Source: a virus (taxonomy: Duplodnaviria; Heunggongvirae; Uroviricota; Caudoviricetes). From it: a stretch of 5,114 nt of DNA. Below are positions 1 to 5,114 of the stretch, in pieces. The position numbers and the translations under genes are program-made. The stretch is taken from IMG/VR virus record IMGVR_UViG_2778261276_000007, one strand, 5' to 3'. Positions within the stretch are counted from its first letter, which is position 1. Each line of letters starts with the position of its first letter. The notes under the pieces were generated by a model that made no database searches, was not told the DNA's origin, and was given only the letters and a program-made list of their open reading frames with translations.

Positions 1-1
1 A

Positions 2-1282
2 TTAATTTTTCATTGCTTCGTTATGGGGCATGGTTGGGGCAAACTCGCTTAACTGTGTATTTAACAAAGCTACCTGTGCATTATTGTTTTCAGACATCCA
101 TTTTCCGTATACCTGAAATACCATTTGCGCATCTGCATGGCCCATCTGGTTTGCTATAAATGCCGGGTTAGCACCAGCTGTCAGCGACCAGCAGGCATAA
201 GTATGTCTCGACTGATATGATTTTCGATGGCGGAGTCCGGCACGTTTTATCGCTGCGTCCCACATCTGCCTTATTGAGTCAACGGTAAAATGGTCACCAT
301 AATTTTTTACTCTCGCTGACACTTCAGGTTGAAAAACAAAGGTGCATTTATGTTTTTCTGTTCTGCCATACTCTCTGAGGTGAACATCAATGATATGCTC
401 TTTGCTCAGTCTCGTTAATGTCATCTGACTCCGGAGAGCGTCGATTGCTGGCTTAATAAGATGAATGACCCGATTGGTTCCCGCCTGTGTTTTTGGTACC
501 GTGAAACGGTCTTTTGCTAAATTTCTCCTGATCATCATTGTTCCATTTTTCAGATCTATGTCCTCCCATCCAAGTGCACACAGCTCACCAGGGCGAACGC
601 CAGTATAAACAGAAACACACCATAAATTTTTGGCTTGCTGATTTCTGCACGCATCGATAAGACGGATGAATTCCTCCCGCGAAAGAGGATCCGGAATGGT
701 TCTTGATTCCTTTAATGGCGAGATCCCCTTAAACGGGTTATCTGCCAGGTAACCGTTATCAACACCAAACTGGAACACGGCGTTAAGATTTGTCATGTAA
801 TTATTTACAGTTACAGCCGATCTCCCTGGTTGTGTAACAATATAGTTACTTTTGGGGATCTGGTATCCAGTCAGTAGCTCTTTACGAACCTCCAGTAATT
901 TTTCTTTATTAATCGATGAGGCAAGATTTTTTTCACCGATTATGCTCAGGATATTTTTGATGACGGCACGGTATGTGTTGAGTGATGTTTTTGCGACTTC
1001 AGTTTCTTTCAGTGCCAGAAATTTTTCAGCCAGTTCTTTTATGGTTAAATCTTGTCGAGTCTCACCAAATTTTTCCAGATTGCGTGAGGAGGGAAACTGT
1101 TTTGCATAGTCGAAAACACCAGTTTTTATTGCGTAACAAACAGAGGCGCGTAGCTCACCTGCAACGCGCCTGTTTTTTGCTGTGTCAGGAACCCCCAGGT
1201 TTTCCCTGACTCTTACGCCTTTATAAACAAACCAGATACGTAATTTCCCTCCATGGTTTTCCACGCCTGTCGGATATTTCAT
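2..1282 (-). CDS. Prophage tyrosine-type site-specific integrase, about 426 aa from the ATG at 1282 (ORF is open to an ATG at 1297)
   Basis: 431-codon minus-strand ORF with stop TAA at 2-4. N-terminus MKYPTGVENHGGKLRIWFVYKGVRVRENLG resembles the arm-binding N-domain of prophage integrases. C-terminal region carries the catalytic-box-like segment VRPGE...PKTQAGTNRVIHL...SRHTYACW...GHADAQMVFQVY (Arg, Lys, Arg-His, His, Tyr). The ATG at 1282 has a purine-rich SD-like AGAGAAG 5 nt upstream; the ATG at 1297 has none. Confidence 0.92.
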   Translation of the reverse strand: MKYPTGVENHGGKLRIWFVYKGVRVRENLGVPDTAKNRRVAGELRASVCYAIKTGVFDYAKQFPSSRNLEKFGETRQDLTIKELAEKFLALKETEVAKTSLNTYRAVIKNILSIIGEKNLASSINKEKLLEVRKELLTGYQIPKSNYIVTQPGRSAVTVNNYMTNLNAVFQFGVDNGYLADNPFKGISPLKESRTIPDPLSREEFIRLIDACRNQQAKNLWCVSVYTGVRPGELCALGWEDIDLKNGTMMIRRNLAKDRFTVPKTQAGTNRVIHLIKPAIDALRSQMTLTRLSKEHIIDVHLREYGRTEKHKCTFVFQPEVSARVKNYGDHFTVDSIRQMWDAAIKRAGLRHRKSYQSRHTYACWSLTAGANPAFIANQMGHADAQMVFQVYGKWMSENNNAQVALLNTQLSEFAPTMPHNEAMKN

Positions 1283-1316
1283 TTCAACTTCTCTCATTAG
1301 TTAGTGTGGCTTTTAG

Positions 1317-1568
1317 TCAAGTAAGATGACGTCTTGGTCTTGCTGATGCCTGGCGCTCAATCCAGCGATCAATTTCTTCCAGGTTGTAAAAGCATGGACT
1401 GTTATCCCATGGCATACCGTCATGAGCGACATGCTTATATTCCCTTCCTTCCATAAACGATTTTTCCCGGGCCTTTTTTAACGTACCTTTTTTTATTCCT
1501 TTCAGCGCAATTAACTGCTCTTCGGATACCCATTTGCCGGGAGAGACAATCATGATTACTTCGCTCAT
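1317..1568 (-). CDS. Excisionase / Xis-like small DNA-binding protein (83 aa)
   Basis: Small ORF immediately upstream of int on the same strand, 19 bp gap. Contains a GREY motif (MEGREYKHVAHDG) comparable to lambda Xis KDGREYLFHES. Basic, with a Lys-rich segment (KGIKKGTLKKAREK). Position and size are typical of xis. Confidence 0.75.
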   Translation of the reverse strand: MSEVIMIVSPGKWVSEEQLIALKGIKKGTLKKAREKSFMEGREYKHVAHDGMPWDNSPCFYNLEEIDRWIERQASARPRRHLT

Positions 1569-1597
1569 CGATTTCTTTATCTCTTACATCAGACGAG

Positions 1598-1629
1598 CGC
1601 CGGTTGCAGAATACCAGTCACAACCGGCG
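1598..1629 (-). other. GC-rich perfect 9-bp inverted repeat (CGCCGGTTG / CAACCGGCG, 14-nt loop) in the exonuclease-xis intergenic region; possible RNA stem-loop
   Basis: Seen directly: arms at 1598-1606 and 1621-1629. Lies between the exonuclease stop (1641) and the xis start (1568). No U-tract follows on the minus-strand transcript, so it is not a canonical intrinsic terminator. Confidence 0.4.
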
Positions 1630-1640
1630 ACAGTTGAACA

Positions 1641-4112
1641 TTAAGAATCAGCCTGACTCGGGATCAGTTTTTGCCAGATAACTGAAACGTATTTTGCCAG
1701 GTAACGGGCGTCATCAAGTGCATTATGGCGCTCACCTTCGAATGGAATAGCCGTTCTGGCATCGAAGTCTATGGCTTTCCCCAGCTCAACGATTGTGCGT
1801 ACATCGCGATCGTTGTAGTAACGCCACGGGCAGGGGATCCCCTGCCGTTCGTATGAACGGCGCAAAATCGTGTTGTCGAAGTTGGCTCCATTTCCCCAAA
1901 CCTGAACAAAAAATTCACCGGAGTTTTCGTCGATAAATTCTCGCAATTGTAACAGTGCATCATCTAACGGGATTTCATCGGTCATAATGGCAGATTGCGC
2001 TTCGCGTGATTGCTTAAGCCACCATTTAATGGTGTCCCGATCAATGACTCCGCCAGCAGTTTCCAGATCGATAGTCTTACTAAATTCCGGTCCCATATCT
2101 CCGGTTTGCGGATCGAAAAATATTGCACCTATTGAGATGATCGGGGCATCAGGATTTTTTCCCATGGTTTCAAGGTCGATCATTAGATGGTCACACGTCC
2201 TGCTGGTGGATGTGATTTCGTGATGACCGTTCACCTTAATTGGGTGATCTGCCGTCTCGCCAGTTTCATTATCGCTATTGTGATGCTGATTGCCGCCAGT
2301 GTTCTCCTTGTGTGGATGTTCAGCGCCTTCCATTTCCTCCGGATCATCTTCCTGAACTTCAACCTGATACTCTTCATCGAATGTTTCTTGGTATGTTGCG
2401 TCGCCCATCACCGCGCCACAATCAGGGCAGTTGCCGCCGCCGGTCTGACCGCAGGCGGTGCAGACTTTTTCCACTTCCTGTTGCGCTACTGGTTCAGGCT
2501 GTTTCGTTTCTGGCTCGTTTTGTAACGCATTTGGACTGTTTTGTTCCGCTTTTTGGTAGTTCCGTTCCGATTCATGCTGGTTCTGGTTCACAGAATCGCG
2601 GGTCTGGAGCCCCTTAACCCATTTCGGATCATTCGGGTCACTAATCCCTTCAACAAATTCACCACGTGATGCAGCAAGCAACTTATCGGCGTCAGGCTGG
2701 CTGATATTGGCTGCCTGCATAATTTTGTTTACTTCGTCAGCGGTAACTTTTATCGGCTCTGGTTGTTCTGAATCTTCAGCGGTATCTACATTTTGCGGTA
2801 AGCCCGTGTATGTGCCATTTTTTCGGGCAAAATATTCTTCTTTTGTGATTTCAGTGGCGCCAGCAGCCAGTGCCTTATCCAGACCAGAGAGTTTGTTTGC
2901 GCGACCGTATTTTTCTCCGTCCTTATCTGCGAAGAGGAAATAGAACGGCCCCTCACGCTCTACAGATGGTTCAGCTTCCGGCGCGGTTTCATTTTTTGGG
3001 ATATCAGATACCTCAGTTTCCACTGCATCAGTTTGTGTTTCTGATGACTGGAGAACATCAACAGTGCCCAGGTCTGTTTCTTCATTCTCAAACACGCCCT
3101 TTGTCGTCAGGTATTCGCAGATATATTTGTTCAGTGCTACGGGATCTTTGTGAATGTCGATCGGACGCTCACGGACAAGGCCAAAAATAGTTTGGCGGTC
3201 GTAGCGAAGGGCATCAGGCTGTTTGCGCATTGATGCCGAGATACGCTTCCAGTCTTCGCGGTCGTTGTCGATAACTTCTTTTTTTGCCCAGCGATGGATG
3301 CTGCCGTCAATGTTTCCGGCATCCACATCACTAGGCCAGAGAGCGTAGGCCAGTTCGTCATCCAGTGTTTTCCATGTCTGCTTGTATTCGCGATGAATGG
3401 CAGCAATGACCGGGCTGATTTTTCCTGTTGAATTTTCAGTGTACTGTTGATTGGCTCTGGCGCGGGCGAGATCAACAACAGACGTGTATTTTCCGGTTTC
3501 CTTGCGTTCACCTTCGCGACGTTTTTTCCAGATGCGCATCTCTGCCTGAATTTCGGGCCATTTAGCACCAGGAATACATTTATGCTTAACCCACCCAATG
3601 GCGTGCAACTTAAGCTCCGGATACATGGCGTTAACTTCTGGCATTTTCATCAACGCTTCAACGATATGTCCGTCGAATGTTGCCATGTCTTCCTGCAACA
3701 ATTCCTGTGCGCTAATAACCATATCAACGGTGATGTTTTCACATGTGTCGAACTTAACCATGACAGCGTTCTGTACTTCAGGGGCCAGCTTGTCAAAAGT
3801 GACGTTCATCGGATCGGATTCAGTCTCAACCGGGACAAAAGAAGCAGACTCCTCATCCCAGCGGTTTTCCTGCATATATTCAGCATCCCATGAATCGAGG
3901 GCAGGGCGGGGTATGCCAGGTTTATCCTCGCAGACAATAAATTTATAAGCGCAGTCCTGAGCAGCCGGATAATGTTCCAGGAATTGCCAGTGAAATTTTG
4001 CTCGAGCACGGCGTTCGTCGCCAGCTTCAATGGCTGTGGCTACAGCCACAGCGCCTTCTTCCCTTGTTGCCAGTTCGTCAGGAATAGCGGCGCAAATAAA
4101 GACTTTACTCAT
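1641..4112 (-). CDS. Large prophage early-region protein (823 aa) with C-terminal DnaQ-like DEDDh 3'-5' exonuclease domain; of the type often annotated exodeoxyribonuclease VIII-like; N-terminus resembles K-12 Qin YdfE
   Basis: Minus-strand ORF open from 4148 (TTG) but first ATGs are at 4127 and 4112; the ATG at 4112 (MSKVFICAAIPDE...) has SD-like GAGGT 8 nt upstream. Stop TAA at 1641-1643. C-terminal 180 aa (about 1644-2183) carries exonuclease motifs MIDLETMG (Exo I), WGNGANFDNTIL (Exo II) and HNALDDARYLAKY (Exo III). A CxxC-x9-CxxC zinc-ribbon-like element (CTACGQTGGGNCPDCG, about 2415-2462) and acidic/His-rich linkers precede it. Confidence 0.85.
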   Translation of the reverse strand: MSKVFICAAIPDELATREEGAVAVATAIEAGDERRARAKFHWQFLEHYPAAQDCAYKFIVCEDKPGIPRPALDSWDAEYMQENRWDEESASFVPVETESDPMNVTFDKLAPEVQNAVMVKFDTCENITVDMVISAQELLQEDMATFDGHIVEALMKMPEVNAMYPELKLHAIGWVKHKCIPGAKWPEIQAEMRIWKKRREGERKETGKYTSVVDLARARANQQYTENSTGKISPVIAAIHREYKQTWKTLDDELAYALWPSDVDAGNIDGSIHRWAKKEVIDNDREDWKRISASMRKQPDALRYDRQTIFGLVRERPIDIHKDPVALNKYICEYLTTKGVFENEETDLGTVDVLQSSETQTDAVETEVSDIPKNETAPEAEPSVEREGPFYFLFADKDGEKYGRANKLSGLDKALAAGATEITKEEYFARKNGTYTGLPQNVDTAEDSEQPEPIKVTADEVNKIMQAANISQPDADKLLAASRGEFVEGISDPNDPKWVKGLQTRDSVNQNQHESERNYQKAEQNSPNALQNEPETKQPEPVAQQEVEKVCTACGQTGGGNCPDCGAVMGDATYQETFDEEYQVEVQEDDPEEMEGAEHPHKENTGGNQHHNSDNETGETADHPIKVNGHHEITSTSRTCDHLMIDLETMGKNPDAPIISIGAIFFDPQTGDMGPEFSKTIDLETAGGVIDRDTIKWWLKQSREAQSAIMTDEIPLDDALLQLREFIDENSGEFFVQVWGNGANFDNTILRRSYERQGIPCPWRYYNDRDVRTIVELGKAIDFDARTAIPFEGERHNALDDARYLAKYVSVIWQKLIPSQADS

Positions 4113-4204
4113 TTGTTTTAACCTCATGACAGATTTAAGGATGAACAAATCCCTGCCATTGCTGGCATATAAGAATGAAACCGGATATTTATTACGGAAC
4201 TGTT

Positions 4205-4396
4205 TTAAAGACCTGCCGGGATTTCGATATTATCCTGGTGAATAACTTTATCGACCGGGTAACAGTTACCGGGAATTTTCTGTTCGGTTGCTGCAGTCAT
4301 ACACTCCTGCATTGTCCTGTGAACACTGACTGCAATATCAACTGGCTCTCCGGAAACAAGAAAAACTGTCAGAACAAGCACAAATGCTGAATTCAT
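4205..4396 (-). CDS. ydfD: YdfD-like small membrane/lysis peptide (63 aa) with hydrophobic N-terminus
   Basis: ATG at 4396-4394 preceded by SD-like AAGGA 8 nt upstream; stop TAA at 4205-4207. Product MNSAFVLVLTVFLVSGEPVDIAVSV... has an N-terminal hydrophobic helix followed by a two-Cys polar tail. Sequence and length match my recollection of Qin prophage YdfD; the longer ORF-track start at 4450 lacks a well-spaced RBS and would overlap dicB. Confidence 0.7.
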   Translation of the reverse strand: MNSAFVLVLTVFLVSGEPVDIAVSVHRTMQECMTAATEQKIPGNCYPVDKVIHQDNIEIPAGL

Positions 4397-4581
4397 TGTG
4401 CACATCCTTTTGGCATCAGACGTAAACGAGCCAGCATTGAAACAATGCATATTTTATTTAATAGCTCCCGTTCTTGTTTTCTCTTGTTAATGGCATCTTC
4501 AGTAAATACTGGGTTACTGATAGTGACACCAATTTCAAAACAACCTTCAGACGTATTAACGTTTGGTAATAACGTTTTCAT
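4393..4581 (-). CDS. dicB: DicB-like cell division inhibitor (62 aa)
   Basis: ORF MKTLLPNVNTSEGCFEIGVTISNPVFTEDAINKRKQERELLNKICIVSMLARLRLMPKGCAQ matches my recollection of Qin prophage DicB (62 aa). Strong SD GAGGA 7 nt upstream of the ATG at 4581. Stop TGA (4395-4393) overlaps the ydfD ATG as ATGA. Confidence 0.78.
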   Translation of the reverse strand: MKTLLPNVNTSEGCFEIGVTISNPVFTEDAINKRKQERELLNKICIVSMLARLRLMPKGCAQ

Positions 4582-4617
4582 TATCGCGTCCTCAACAATG
4601 AATTTTGTGATGCAGTG

Positions 4618-4657
4618 CCTGGTGCCTCCAGGTGACGTTAACCAGTTAACAATTAAC
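4618..4657 (-). promoter_or_regulatory. dicB leader region with palindromic/repeated motifs (CCTGG-N5-CCAGG; GTTAAC-CA-GTTAAC-AATTAAC); candidate operator or RNA-processing structure
   Basis: Seen directly 25-75 nt upstream of the dicB start codon. Function is inferred only. Confidence 0.3.
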
Positions 4658-4839
4658 GCCGGATATGTGCTGTGGCAGCCGCATGTTCTGGTTCGATAAG
4701 TCTGACGAACGGGCGATATTCAGCGATATCAGAAAAGAAGGATACACATTACGCAATGGGAGACGCTTGATTATCAGCCCTGACATTATCGCAGATTTTC
4801 GTGCATTATCATTTGCAGACGCATCTTTTTCGATGGTTG

Positions 4840-4880
4840 TGGATTTGCCCCTATATTTCCAGACATCTGTTATCACTTAA
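4840..4880. repeat. IS2 right terminal inverted repeat (IRR)
   Basis: Characteristic IS2 end sequence TGGATTTGCCCC...ATCACTTAA; the transposase stop codon (4851-4853) lies inside it. Confidence 0.8.
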
Positions 4881-5114
4881 CCCATTACAAGCCCGCTGCC
4901 GCAGATATTCCCGTGGCGAGCGATAACCCAGCGCACTATGCGGATGCCATTCGTTATAATGCTCGAACGCCTCTGCAAGGTTCTTTGCTGCCGTTAACCC
5001 GTCTGGTTTGGGCATGATACTGATGTAGTCACGCTTTATCGTTTTCACGAAGCTCTCTGCTATTCCGTTACTCTCCGGACTCCGCACCGCCGTGTTCTTC
5101 GGTTCAAGTCCCAA
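4851..5114 (-). CDS. insD: IS2 transposase orfB (InsD-like), C-terminal fragment; 5' part lies beyond the window edge
   Basis: Translation ...[76 protein letters not shown] is the conserved C-terminus of an IS3-family DDE transposase and matches the IS2 InsD end as I recall it. The ORF runs to the window edge; the first codon at 5114-5112 is TTG, not a genuine start. Confidence 0.88.

What the first reader, a model, noticed from the sequence alone, without database searches (positions are those of the whole stretch)
4205..4581. Translationally coupled dicB-ydfD pair (ATGA overlap) encoding two host-toxic small proteins
The dicB stop TGA (4395-4393) overlaps the ydfD start ATG (4396-4394), and each gene has its own SD. 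DicB is known to inhibit FtsZ-ring formation via MinC, and YdfD has been described as a lysis-inducing peptide with an N-terminal transmembrane helix whose toxicity depends on cell division. Tight coupling of a division inhibitor with a lysis peptide fits a built-in control over YdfD-mediated killing.
Basis: partly seen in the sequence, partly recalled or inferred. Interest (0 to 1): 0.5.

Follow-up and report, generated by a model that had tools for sequence, protein, structure and literature searches.

The report
Known dicB–ydfD prophage gene pair
This is the well-studied dicB–ydfD gene pair of the Qin cryptic prophage of E. coli, base-for-base identical to the K-12 copy; its four-base overlap and the division-inhibitor/lysis-protein relationship are already published, so the finding is correct but ordinary.

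Summary
On the minus strand, dicB (4581..4393, 62 aa) ends in a TGA that shares three bases with the ydfD ATG (4396..4205, 63 aa), and each gene has a Shine-Dalgarno-like motif 7-8 nt upstream of its start. Window 3346-4665 is 100% identical to E. coli K-12 MG1655. The proteins match Pfam DicB (1.9e-40) and DUF1482/YdfD (3.9e-26), and the DNA is found in 4484 of 5426 complete E. coli genomes. The functional reading is already published: DicB blocks division through MinC, YdfD lyses dividing cells, and DicB or SulA co-expression prevents that lysis. True translational coupling has never been tested, and I found no conserved RNA structure that would enforce it.

Three things are new here:
- In 338 DUF1482 loci the start overlaps an upstream small ORF in 328, but outside Escherichia that partner is one of three families unrelated to DicB.
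- This copy lacks dicF, dicA and dicBp and sits behind an IS2.
- YdfD's "TM helix" is an 11-residue uncharged hydrophobic stretch, which AlphaFold2 models as a beta strand.

Verdict: already known, low interest.

The parts
4393..4581 (-). dicB, cell-division inhibitor, 62 aa (ATG 4581-4579, TGA 4395-4393)
   Evidence: ORF. Pfam PF05358 DicB 1.9e-40, full length. NCBIfam NF049927, 132.8 bits against a cut-off of 100. 100% DNA identity to K-12 MG1655 dicB, WP_000854559.1.
4205..4396 (-). ydfD, lysis protein of the DUF1482 family, 63 aa (ATG 4396-4394, TAA 4207-4205)
   Evidence: Pfam PF07358 DUF1482 3.9e-26. phrog_1092 6.8e-36. Annotated 'lysis protein YdfD', WP_001083297.1, in RefSeq. All eight family invariants (M1, L7, G16, C32, E38, Q39, C45, P47) are present.
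4393..4396 (-). ATGA stop/start overlap of dicB and ydfD
   Evidence: Read directly. The same 4-nt (ATGA/GTGA) or 1-nt (TGATG) overlap occurs in 328 of 338 DUF1482 loci.
4589..4593 (-). SD-like GAGGA, 7 nt upstream of the dicB ATG
   Evidence: Anti-SD duplex -5.9 kcal/mol.
4405..4409 (-). SD-like AAGGA inside the dicB codons for Lys58-Gly59, 8 nt upstream of the ydfD ATG
   Evidence: Anti-SD duplex -6.3 kcal/mol. The same AAAGGA (coding K-G) precedes the DUF1482 start in Klebsiella-type loci, where the partner protein is unrelated.
4618..4660 (-). Conserved two-hairpin dicB leader, equal to the 3' half of an STnc100-like element (sub-threshold Rfam RF02076)
   Evidence: cmscan 20.9 bits, model positions 25-154. 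Full-length matches of 34-39 bits in K-12, PPompW and a Klebsiella phage, all below the gathering score of 47. Three pairs carry compensatory changes between the Escherichia and Klebsiella versions.
4144..4167 (-). Weak terminator-like hairpin plus T-rich tail, 38 nt downstream of ydfD
   Evidence: Consensus scan only: 3 sites found against 1.1 expected. The position fits the 1,608-nt ydfABC-dicFB-ydfD transcript reported in PMC10448788. Not shown to function.
4683..4839 (+). 5' remnant of a class I SAM-dependent methyltransferase gene, divergent from dicB; it replaces the K-12 dicF/ydfABC/dicA region
   Evidence: 99.9% identical to E. coli 1303 (L001), where the gene is annotated. Identity to K-12 stops at 4665.
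4840..5114 (-). Right end of IS2 (C-terminus of the InsD transposase, reading toward dicB)
   Evidence: Pfam rve_3 1.5e-19. 100% identical to the IS2 copy in K-12 Qin. No complete E. coli genome in the collection has this junction.
1641..4112 (-). Intact 823-aa prophage exonuclease (K-12 ydfE is its truncated N-terminus)
   Evidence: RefSeq 'exonuclease' in L001. Pfam Rv2179c-like 3'-5' exoribonuclease domain 3e-66 at the C-terminus.
1317..1568 (-). Excisionase (DUF1233)
   Evidence: Pfam 1.6e-31; annotation in L001.
2..1282 (-). Tyrosine integrase (intact counterpart of K-12 intQ)
   Evidence: Pfam Arm-DNA-bind_2 and Phage_integrase; annotation in L001.

Best explanation
The region is the canonical dicB-ydfD pair at the distal end of the early-left operon of a Qin-type lambdoid cryptic prophage of Escherichia/Shigella. 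The gene order is dicB - ydfD - exonuclease - xis - int. The two small genes are co-transcribed. A ribosome terminating dicB at the TGA is already positioned on the ydfD ATG, and an AAGGA motif embedded in the last dicB codons can also recruit ribosomes directly. YdfD is therefore most likely made whenever DicB is made, at a roughly fixed ratio (inferred). DicB blocks Z-ring formation through MinC, and YdfD lyses only dividing cells, so operon expression yields filaments rather than lysis (published). In this copy the normal control region (dicA/dicC, dicBp, ydfABC, dicF) has been replaced by a methyltransferase remnant carrying an IS2. Any expression here would have to come from read-through or a minor promoter (inferred).
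For: Identity: Pfam DicB 1.9e-40 and DUF1482 3.9e-26, NCBIfam DicB, 100% DNA identity to K-12 over 3346-4665, and RefSeq names 'cell division inhibition protein DicB' and 'lysis protein YdfD'. Overlap and SD motifs. Conservation of the overlap: 253 loci with 4 nt and 75 with 1 nt, out of 338; the exceptions are single-base indels or nonsense mutations. Function from the literature: PMC8835842 (DicB or SulA prevents YdfD lysis; same operon with partial overlap; YdfD binds IspG); PMC11430063; PMC10448788 (1,608-nt ydfABC-dicFB-ydfD transcript); PMC6832061. Context. No DicF in the window, whereas DicF is found in K-12 and PPompW.
Against: Strict coupling, meaning ydfD translation that depends on dicB translation, is not shown anywhere. 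ydfD has a well-spaced SD of its own. The local fold is no more stable than shuffles (z = 0.29). Pairing of the SD/ATG is above shuffles only in the window sequence (0.78 against 0.60±0.10; 3 of 100 shuffles reach it) and not in nine other homologues. Protection by DicB is not specific, since SulA does the same (PMC8835842). Outside Escherichia the coupled upstream gene is not DicB.
Confidence: 0.9

Rival explanations
1. The ATGA overlap is simple gene packing, typical of phage early operons. ydfD is initiated independently from its own SD, and the overlap carries no regulatory meaning.
For: ydfD has an SD-like AAGGA at optimal spacing. No conserved occluding structure was found. Overlaps of 4 or 1 nt also occur in 4 of 29 other neighbouring gene pairs in the annotated phage loci. 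The upstream partner is interchangeable.
Against: The overlap is kept in 328 of 338 loci, at junctions with four unrelated partners and in two forms (ATGA/GTGA, TGATG). With a background of about 14%, that is more than packing alone predicts. These junctions may not all be independent events.
Confidence: 0.35
2. dicB-ydfD is a dedicated antidote/toxin-like two-gene module: DicB has evolved to gate YdfD killing, the 'built-in control' the first reader proposed.
For: Co-expression of DicB prevents YdfD lysis, and a working model to this effect is published (PMC8835842). Adjacency and overlap are conserved in 90 Escherichia-type loci.
Against: SulA protects equally, so the effect is a generic result of blocking division (PMC8835842). 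In Klebsiella-, Salmonella- and Citrobacter-type phages the coupled partner is one of three other families with no similarity to DicB (hhalign probability 0.1% for the one tested; no Pfam or NCBIfam DicB hit). DicB has independent roles, including ManYZ inhibition and phage exclusion (PMC6832061).
Confidence: 0.2
3. YdfD is not an N-terminally anchored membrane peptide. It is a small beta-beta-alpha-beta protein, cytoplasmic or exported through a cleavable signal-like N-terminus, with a Cys32-Cys45 pair. Its mechanism would then differ from the 'TM lysis peptide' picture.
For: The hydrophobic core is only 11 residues (positions 4-14). In 81 unique family members there is no K or R in residues 1-15, Gly16 is invariant and preceded by small or aliphatic residues (V-S-G|E, compatible with the -3/-1 rule), the stretch 16-30 is acidic, and two Cys are invariant. 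The best AlphaFold2 model (pLDDT 76) gives strands 4-12 and 18-26, a helix 29-38 and a strand 44-48.
Against: Only one of the five AF2 models is confident; the others score 46-57. AF2 ignores membranes. The Kyte-Doolittle 19-residue window reaches 2.0, above the usual TM threshold. Published work reports binding to cytoplasmic IspG and activity of an N-terminally truncated form (PMC8835842). No signal-peptide predictor was available.
Confidence: 0.25

Closest known systems
dicB-ydfD of the Qin cryptic prophage, E. coli K-12 MG1655 (b1575-b1576)
   Same: Identical nucleotide sequence from 84 nt upstream of dicB through ydfD and into the exonuclease gene (window 3346-4665). Same proteins (WP_000854559.1, WP_001083297.1), same ATGA junction, same downstream synteny.
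   Different: Upstream of 4665 the K-12 dicF, ydfABC, dicA and dicC are absent. They are replaced by a divergent methyltransferase remnant carrying an IS2. Downstream, the exonuclease, xis and int are intact here, whereas K-12 has ydfE/insD-7/intQ pseudogenes.
DUF1482 (PF07358, phrog_1092) genes of lambdoid phages of Klebsiella, Salmonella and Citrobacter
   Same: Same family, same position just upstream of the exonuclease/recombination genes, and the same stop/start overlap with a short upstream ORF.
   Different: The upstream partner is not DicB. It is a 37-41-aa 'xDFAR...LAQKG' protein (phrog_22279), a 66-aa protein (phrog_3722), or a 42-aa protein with no family. The last two overlap by 1 nt (TGATG).
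Kil-type division inhibitors of lambdoid early-left operons (lambda Kil, Rac KilR); from general knowledge, not tested here
   Same: A small host-toxic FtsZ-ring inhibitor encoded upstream of the recombination genes in the early-left operon and silenced by the prophage repressor.
   Different: No sequence relationship was tested or is claimed. DicB acts through MinC. None of these is known to be followed by a coupled lysis gene.
Single-gene lysis proteins that block cell-wall precursor synthesis (phiX174 E/MraY, Qbeta A2/MurA, phage M LysM/MurJ), as listed in PMC8835842
   Same: A small protein whose expression lyses growing or dividing cells by starving envelope synthesis. YdfD is reported to bind IspG of the MEP pathway.
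   Different: YdfD lies in the early operon of a tailed lambdoid prophage that has its own holin-endolysin cassette elsewhere, and it is not the phage's lysis gene. The inhibitory effect on IspG enzyme activity has not been measured (PMC8835842).

Membership tests
DicB (Pfam PF05358 / NCBIfam NF049927) | Full-length match to the family profile above the curated cut-off | tested here: met
   PF05358 136.8 bits against 27, residues 1-62 of 62. NF049927 132.8 bits against 100.
DicB (Pfam PF05358 / NCBIfam NF049927) | Identity to the experimentally characterised K-12 protein | tested here: met
   100% DNA identity over the gene. Same RefSeq protein, WP_000854559.1.
DicB (Pfam PF05358 / NCBIfam NF049927) | MinC-dependent inhibition of Z-ring formation | not testable with these tools
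   Literature only (PMC8835842, PMC6832061). It follows from sequence identity.
YdfD / DUF1482 (Pfam PF07358, phrog_1092) | Match to the family profile above the curated cut-off | tested here: met
   PF07358 91.1 bits against 25. phrog_1092 6.8e-36.
YdfD / DUF1482 (Pfam PF07358, phrog_1092) | Family-invariant residues (M1, L7, G16, C32, E38, Q39, C45, P47) | tested here: met
   Alignment of 81 unique members; all eight invariants are present in the window protein.
YdfD / DUF1482 (Pfam PF07358, phrog_1092) | N-terminal transmembrane helix | tested here: inconclusive
   Kyte-Doolittle 19-residue maximum 2.0, but the uninterrupted hydrophobic run is 11 residues. No flanking positive charge. AF2 models it as a beta strand, in one of five models only.
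YdfD / DUF1482 (Pfam PF07358, phrog_1092) | Division-dependent lysis on expression | not testable with these tools
   Literature only (Masuda 2016 as cited in PMC8835842, PMC11430063, PMC9782134).
Translationally coupled gene pair | Stop codon of the upstream gene overlaps or abuts the start codon of the downstream gene on one mRNA | tested here: met
   ATGA at 4396-4393. Co-transcription in K-12 is reported in PMC10448788.
Translationally coupled gene pair | Downstream initiation site sequestered in structure that upstream translation opens | tested here: inconclusive
   Window: pairing probability 0.78 against shuffles 0.60±0.10 (3 of 100 reach it). Nine other homologues are not different from shuffles. 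MFE z = 0.29.
Translationally coupled gene pair | Downstream translation depends on upstream translation | not testable with these tools
   Needs reporter fusions. No paper found that tests it.
dicBF operon of Qin (as in K-12) | DicF sRNA gene upstream of dicB | tested here: not met
   No DicF hit in the window. DicF scores 76.7 bits in K-12 and PPompW. Sequence upstream of 4665 is unrelated to K-12.
dicBF operon of Qin (as in K-12) | Synteny dicB - ydfD - exonuclease - xis - int next to rspB | tested here: met
   Window ORFs and Pfam. 99.9% identical to the E. coli 1303 locus that abuts rspB.
Toxin-antitoxin module | Antidote neutralises its cognate toxin specifically | not testable with these tools
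   The literature argues against it: the unrelated division inhibitor SulA also prevents YdfD lysis (PMC8835842).
Rfam RF02076 STnc100 (for the dicB leader) | Score at or above the gathering threshold (47 bits) | tested here: not met
   Window 20.9 bits, partial. K-12 34.4, PPompW 38.7, Klebsiella phage 36.1 bits, full length.

The most novel reading that the evidence does not exclude
DUF1482 (YdfD-type) lysis proteins of enterobacterial lambdoid phages may form a conserved two-gene cassette. In this reading the DUF1482 gene is always translationally coupled, by an ATGA, GTGA or TGATG junction, to an interchangeable upstream micro-ORF. DicB would be only one of at least four unrelated partners, and the other three (phrog_22279, phrog_3722 and a 42-aa orphan) would be undescribed division inhibitors or gatekeepers that keep the lysis protein harmless until division resumes.
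Probability: 0.15. Interest if true: 0.45.

Novelty: already known. Interest (0 to 1): 0.1.

Why it matters
For this window it matters little. The pair is a textbook K-12 locus, and the proposed experiments (express dicB, ydfD or both; score filamentation and lysis) have been published. Two small questions remain open. First, is YdfD synthesis really slaved to DicB translation? That would explain why inducing the operon gives filaments rather than lysis. Second, what do the unrelated micro-ORFs coupled to DUF1482 genes in Klebsiella and Salmonella phages do? If they are also division inhibitors, this would be a cheap route to new FtsZ-pathway inhibitors.

Tried and rejected
- Rfam scan for DicF in the window: absent. 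The only hit is a partial, sub-threshold STnc100 match.
- RNA structure enforcing coupling: the MFE is no better than shuffles, and SD/ATG sequestration is not conserved among homologues.
- Remote homology between DicB and the Klebsiella-type partner, prompted by the shared '...AQKG/PKG' C-terminus: hhalign probability 0.1%. The shared K-G is simply the AAAGGA Shine-Dalgarno motif of the downstream gene read as codons.
- Pfam, NCBIfam and PHROGs annotation of the three non-DicB partners: no function in any library.
- Solved structures of DicB or YdfD by sequence: none.
- Foldseek of the YdfD AlphaFold2 model against the PDB: no match with E < 2.
- The alternative 81-aa ydfD start (ATG 4450): rejected. 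Its only SD-like motif lies at least 14 nt away. The extension is outside the Pfam model. Homologues start at the position equivalent to 4396, and one of them uses GTG there.
- Source genome: no complete E. coli genome in the collection carries the IS2/methyltransferase junction.
- Masuda 2016 and Cam 1988 could not be read because they are not held. Their content is cited second-hand.
- Promoter and terminator scans: counts are within about two standard deviations of the shuffle expectation, so they are not used as evidence.

Full report

Yes. On the minus strand the dicB ORF runs from ATG 4581-4579 to TGA 4395-4393. The ydfD ORF runs from ATG 4396-4394 to TAA 4207-4205. The junction is CACA-ATGA-ATTC, a 4-nt overlap at exactly the coordinates given.

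The mechanical ORF list agrees for dicB (62 aa). It extends the ydfD frame to an upstream ATG at 4450 (81 aa). I reject that start for four reasons:
- Its only SD-like motif is too far away.
- The Pfam model begins at residue 4 of the 63-aa form.
- RefSeq annotates the 63-aa form.
- Distant homologues start at the equivalent position, and one of them uses GTG there.

Both genes have SD-like motifs at good spacing. GAGGA lies 7 nt before the dicB ATG (-5.9 kcal/mol against the anti-SD). AAGGA lies 8 nt before the ydfD ATG (-6.3 kcal/mol). Only about 7% of 20-mers in the window reach -6.

**2. What is it?**

The proteins match Pfam DicB (1.9e-40, full length) and DUF1482 (3.9e-26). DicB also passes the NCBIfam cut-off.

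A 701-nt query across the pair finds matches in 4484 of 5426 complete E. coli genomes. The features under the matches are annotated 'cell division inhibition protein DicB' and 'lysis protein YdfD'. Window 3346-4665 is 100% identical to K-12 MG1655, so these are the K-12 proteins.

The rest of the window is the distal arm of a Qin-type prophage:
- an intact 823-aa exonuclease (1641-4112; K-12 ydfE is its truncated N-terminus);
- an excisionase (1317-1568);
- a tyrosine integrase (2-1282).

Over positions 1-4839 the window is 99.9% identical to E. coli 1303, where this block abuts rspB.

**3. Context that differs from K-12**

Identity to K-12 stops at 4665, 84 nt upstream of dicB. K-12 has dicF, ydfABC and dicA/dicC at that position (DicF scores 76.7 bits). 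The window, like E. coli 1303, instead has the 5' remnant of a divergent class I SAM methyltransferase gene (plus strand, 4683-4839).

In the window that remnant is cut at 4839/4840 by the right end of an IS2, whose transposase reads toward dicB. No DicF is present. No complete E. coli genome in the collection has this IS2 junction.

So this copy of the pair is separated from its normal promoter (dicBp) and from its repressor gene. Whether it is expressed at all is unknown. Promoter-like matches just inside the remnant are no more frequent than in shuffles.

**4. How it most likely works**

The following is published:
- DicB recruits MinC to block Z rings.
- YdfD expression lyses cells.
- Lysis is prevented when division is blocked by DicB or SulA.
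- YdfD binds IspG in vitro and in FRET assays, and ispG overexpression rescues lysis.

These points come from PMC8835842 and PMC11430063. PMC10448788 reports a 1,608-nt ydfABC-dicFB-ydfD transcript. PMC6832061 and PMC9782134 were also read.

The following is inferred. A ribosome terminating at the dicB TGA sits on the ydfD ATG, and the AAGGA embedded in the Lys58-Gly59 codons can retain or recruit 30S subunits. YdfD would then be produced together with DicB at a fixed ratio, and the division block would mask its lytic activity.

The following is not shown: that ydfD translation depends on dicB translation. I looked for a structure that would make coupling obligatory.
- The 121-nt junction folds no better than shuffles (z = 0.29).
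- The SD/ATG pairing probability is elevated in the window sequence (0.78 against 0.60±0.10; 3 of 100 shuffles reach it).
- It is not elevated in nine other homologues.

**5. Family-wide view (the one thing I can add)**

I collected DUF1482 loci from GenBank phages, from one genome per species and from IMG/VR. That gave 338 loci and 81 unique full-length proteins, in seven populated clusters at 70% identity or above.

| Junction with the upstream small ORF | Loci |
|---|---|
| 4-nt overlap (ATGA or GTGA) | 253 |
| 1-nt overlap (TGATG) | 75 |
| No overlap | 10 |

The no-overlap loci I inspected (L004, L045, L073, L197, L207, L258) are single-base indels that fuse the two ORFs, or nonsense or frameshift variants.

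The upstream partner varies:

| Upstream partner | Lineage | Loci | Overlap |
|---|---|---|---|
| DicB (phrog_1251) | Escherichia | 90 | 4 nt (89 loci); 11 nt in the frameshifted Shigella L004 |
| 37-41-aa 'xDFAR...LAQKG' protein (phrog_22279) | Klebsiella-type | 167 | 4 nt (164 loci); 2-nt gap in 3 |
| 66-aa protein (phrog_3722) | Salmonella/Citrobacter-type | 44 | 1 nt |
| 42-aa orphan | not assigned | 31 | 1 nt |

None of the three non-DicB partners hits DicB or any Pfam or NCBIfam family. A profile-profile comparison of DicB with the Klebsiella-type partner is negative (probability 0.1%).

Other same-strand neighbours in the annotated loci overlap in only 4 of 29 cases. Retention of an overlap at four different junctions is therefore unlikely to be packing alone, although the junctions may not be fully independent.

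This cuts two ways. It supports selection for co-translation of DUF1482 with whatever precedes it. It weakens the idea that DicB specifically is YdfD's evolved antidote.

**6. The 'N-terminal TM helix'**

The uninterrupted hydrophobic run is 11 residues (AFVLVLTVFLV, positions 4-14). A 19-residue Kyte-Doolittle window reaches 2.0 only by including Glu17, Pro18 and Asp20.

Across the 81 family members:
- There is no Lys or Arg in residues 1-15.
- Gly16 is invariant.
- The next 15 residues are net acidic.
- Cys32 and Cys45 are invariant.

AlphaFold2 with a 41-sequence alignment gives one moderately confident model: pLDDT 76 and pTM 0.53, against 46-57 for the other four models. It has strands at 4-12 and 18-26, a helix at 29-38 and a strand at 44-48. 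The hydrophobic stretch is thus modelled as the first strand of a small sheet.

Foldseek finds nothing similar in the PDB, and no solved relatives exist. This is inconclusive, but it means the TM-helix statement should be treated as a prediction and not as a fact.

**7. Comparison with the known, and verdict**

The locus is the K-12 dicB-ydfD pair, identical in sequence. Novelty: already known. Interest is low.

The most novel reading that is still open is that DUF1482 proteins form a conserved coupled cassette with interchangeable micro-ORF partners, whose non-DicB members might be new division inhibitors. I give this about 15%.

Noticed in passing
window 4618-4660 (minus strand); also L002 3908-4117, L011 2133-2342, L206 1181-1389: The dicB 5' leader holds two conserved hairpins (GGCGTTAATT/GGTTAACGTC and CCTGG-AGGCA-CCAGG). 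These correspond to the 3' half of Rfam STnc100 (RF02076). The whole dicF-dicB spacer of K-12, PPompW and a Klebsiella phage matches the full model at 34-39 bits, below the gathering score of 47. Three stem pairs show compensatory changes between the Escherichia and Klebsiella versions, even though the downstream ORF differs. The window keeps only the part downstream of 4665.
   Followed up: partly
window 4840-5114 and 4683-4839: An IS2 right end, 100% identical to the IS2 in K-12 Qin, is inserted in a class I SAM methyltransferase remnant 260 nt upstream of dicB. Its transposase reads toward dicB. No complete E. coli genome in the collection has this junction. Read-through from IS2 could be the only source of dicB-ydfD transcription here.
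   Followed up: partly
L014/L015 2391-2504; L016 and L206-type loci; L012/L013 2301-2501; 31 IMG/VR loci: Outside Escherichia, DUF1482 genes are overlapped by three small ORF families of unknown function: 37-41 aa (phrog_22279), 66 aa (phrog_3722) and a 42-aa orphan beginning MVNQQQIREAQ. They sit at the position DicB occupies in Qin.
   Followed up: partly
L045 and L258 (IMG/VR); protein P0085 (108 aa): Single-base indels at the junction fuse the upstream partner in frame to the DUF1482 protein. P0085 carries both the PF05358 and PF07358 domains. The fusions are either natural or sequencing errors in homopolymer runs.
   Followed up: no
L004 (Shigella flexneri SFBU0723) around 2679-2790: The ATGA junction is intact, but the sequence downstream no longer translates to YdfD in the expected frame. 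The script picked a 34-aa out-of-frame ORF instead. ydfD is probably a frameshifted pseudogene, while dicB is intact.
   Followed up: no
L006 (JAGZPX010000007.1, 'MAG: Veillonella parvula'): A 22.9-kb contig binned as Veillonella carries a 95%-identical DicB plus YdfD and exonuclease sequence. It is almost certainly a mis-binned Escherichia prophage contig.
   Followed up: no
window 1641-4112 (minus strand): The intact 823-aa 'exonuclease' (often annotated exodeoxyribonuclease VIII) has a C-terminal Rv2179c-like DEDD 3'-5' exoribonuclease domain (3e-66), not a RecE-type nuclease domain. About 630 N-terminal residues have no Pfam match. K-12 ydfE is the truncated N-terminus of this protein.
   Followed up: no
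L001 3254-3425 (E. coli 1303, upstream part of the same prophage remnant): A full-length sok antitoxin RNA (Rfam 104 bits), and therefore a hok/sok locus, lies about 1.8 kb upstream of dicB in the closest relative of the window. It is outside the window itself.
   Followed up: no
window 4582-4686 compared with L002 3975-4084: In K-12 and most relatives the dicB frame stays open for 35 codons upstream of the ATG, back to a GTG (97-aa ORF). [quoted passage not shown] In the window the replaced upstream sequence removes that extension, so only the 62-aa ORF remains.
   Followed up: partly
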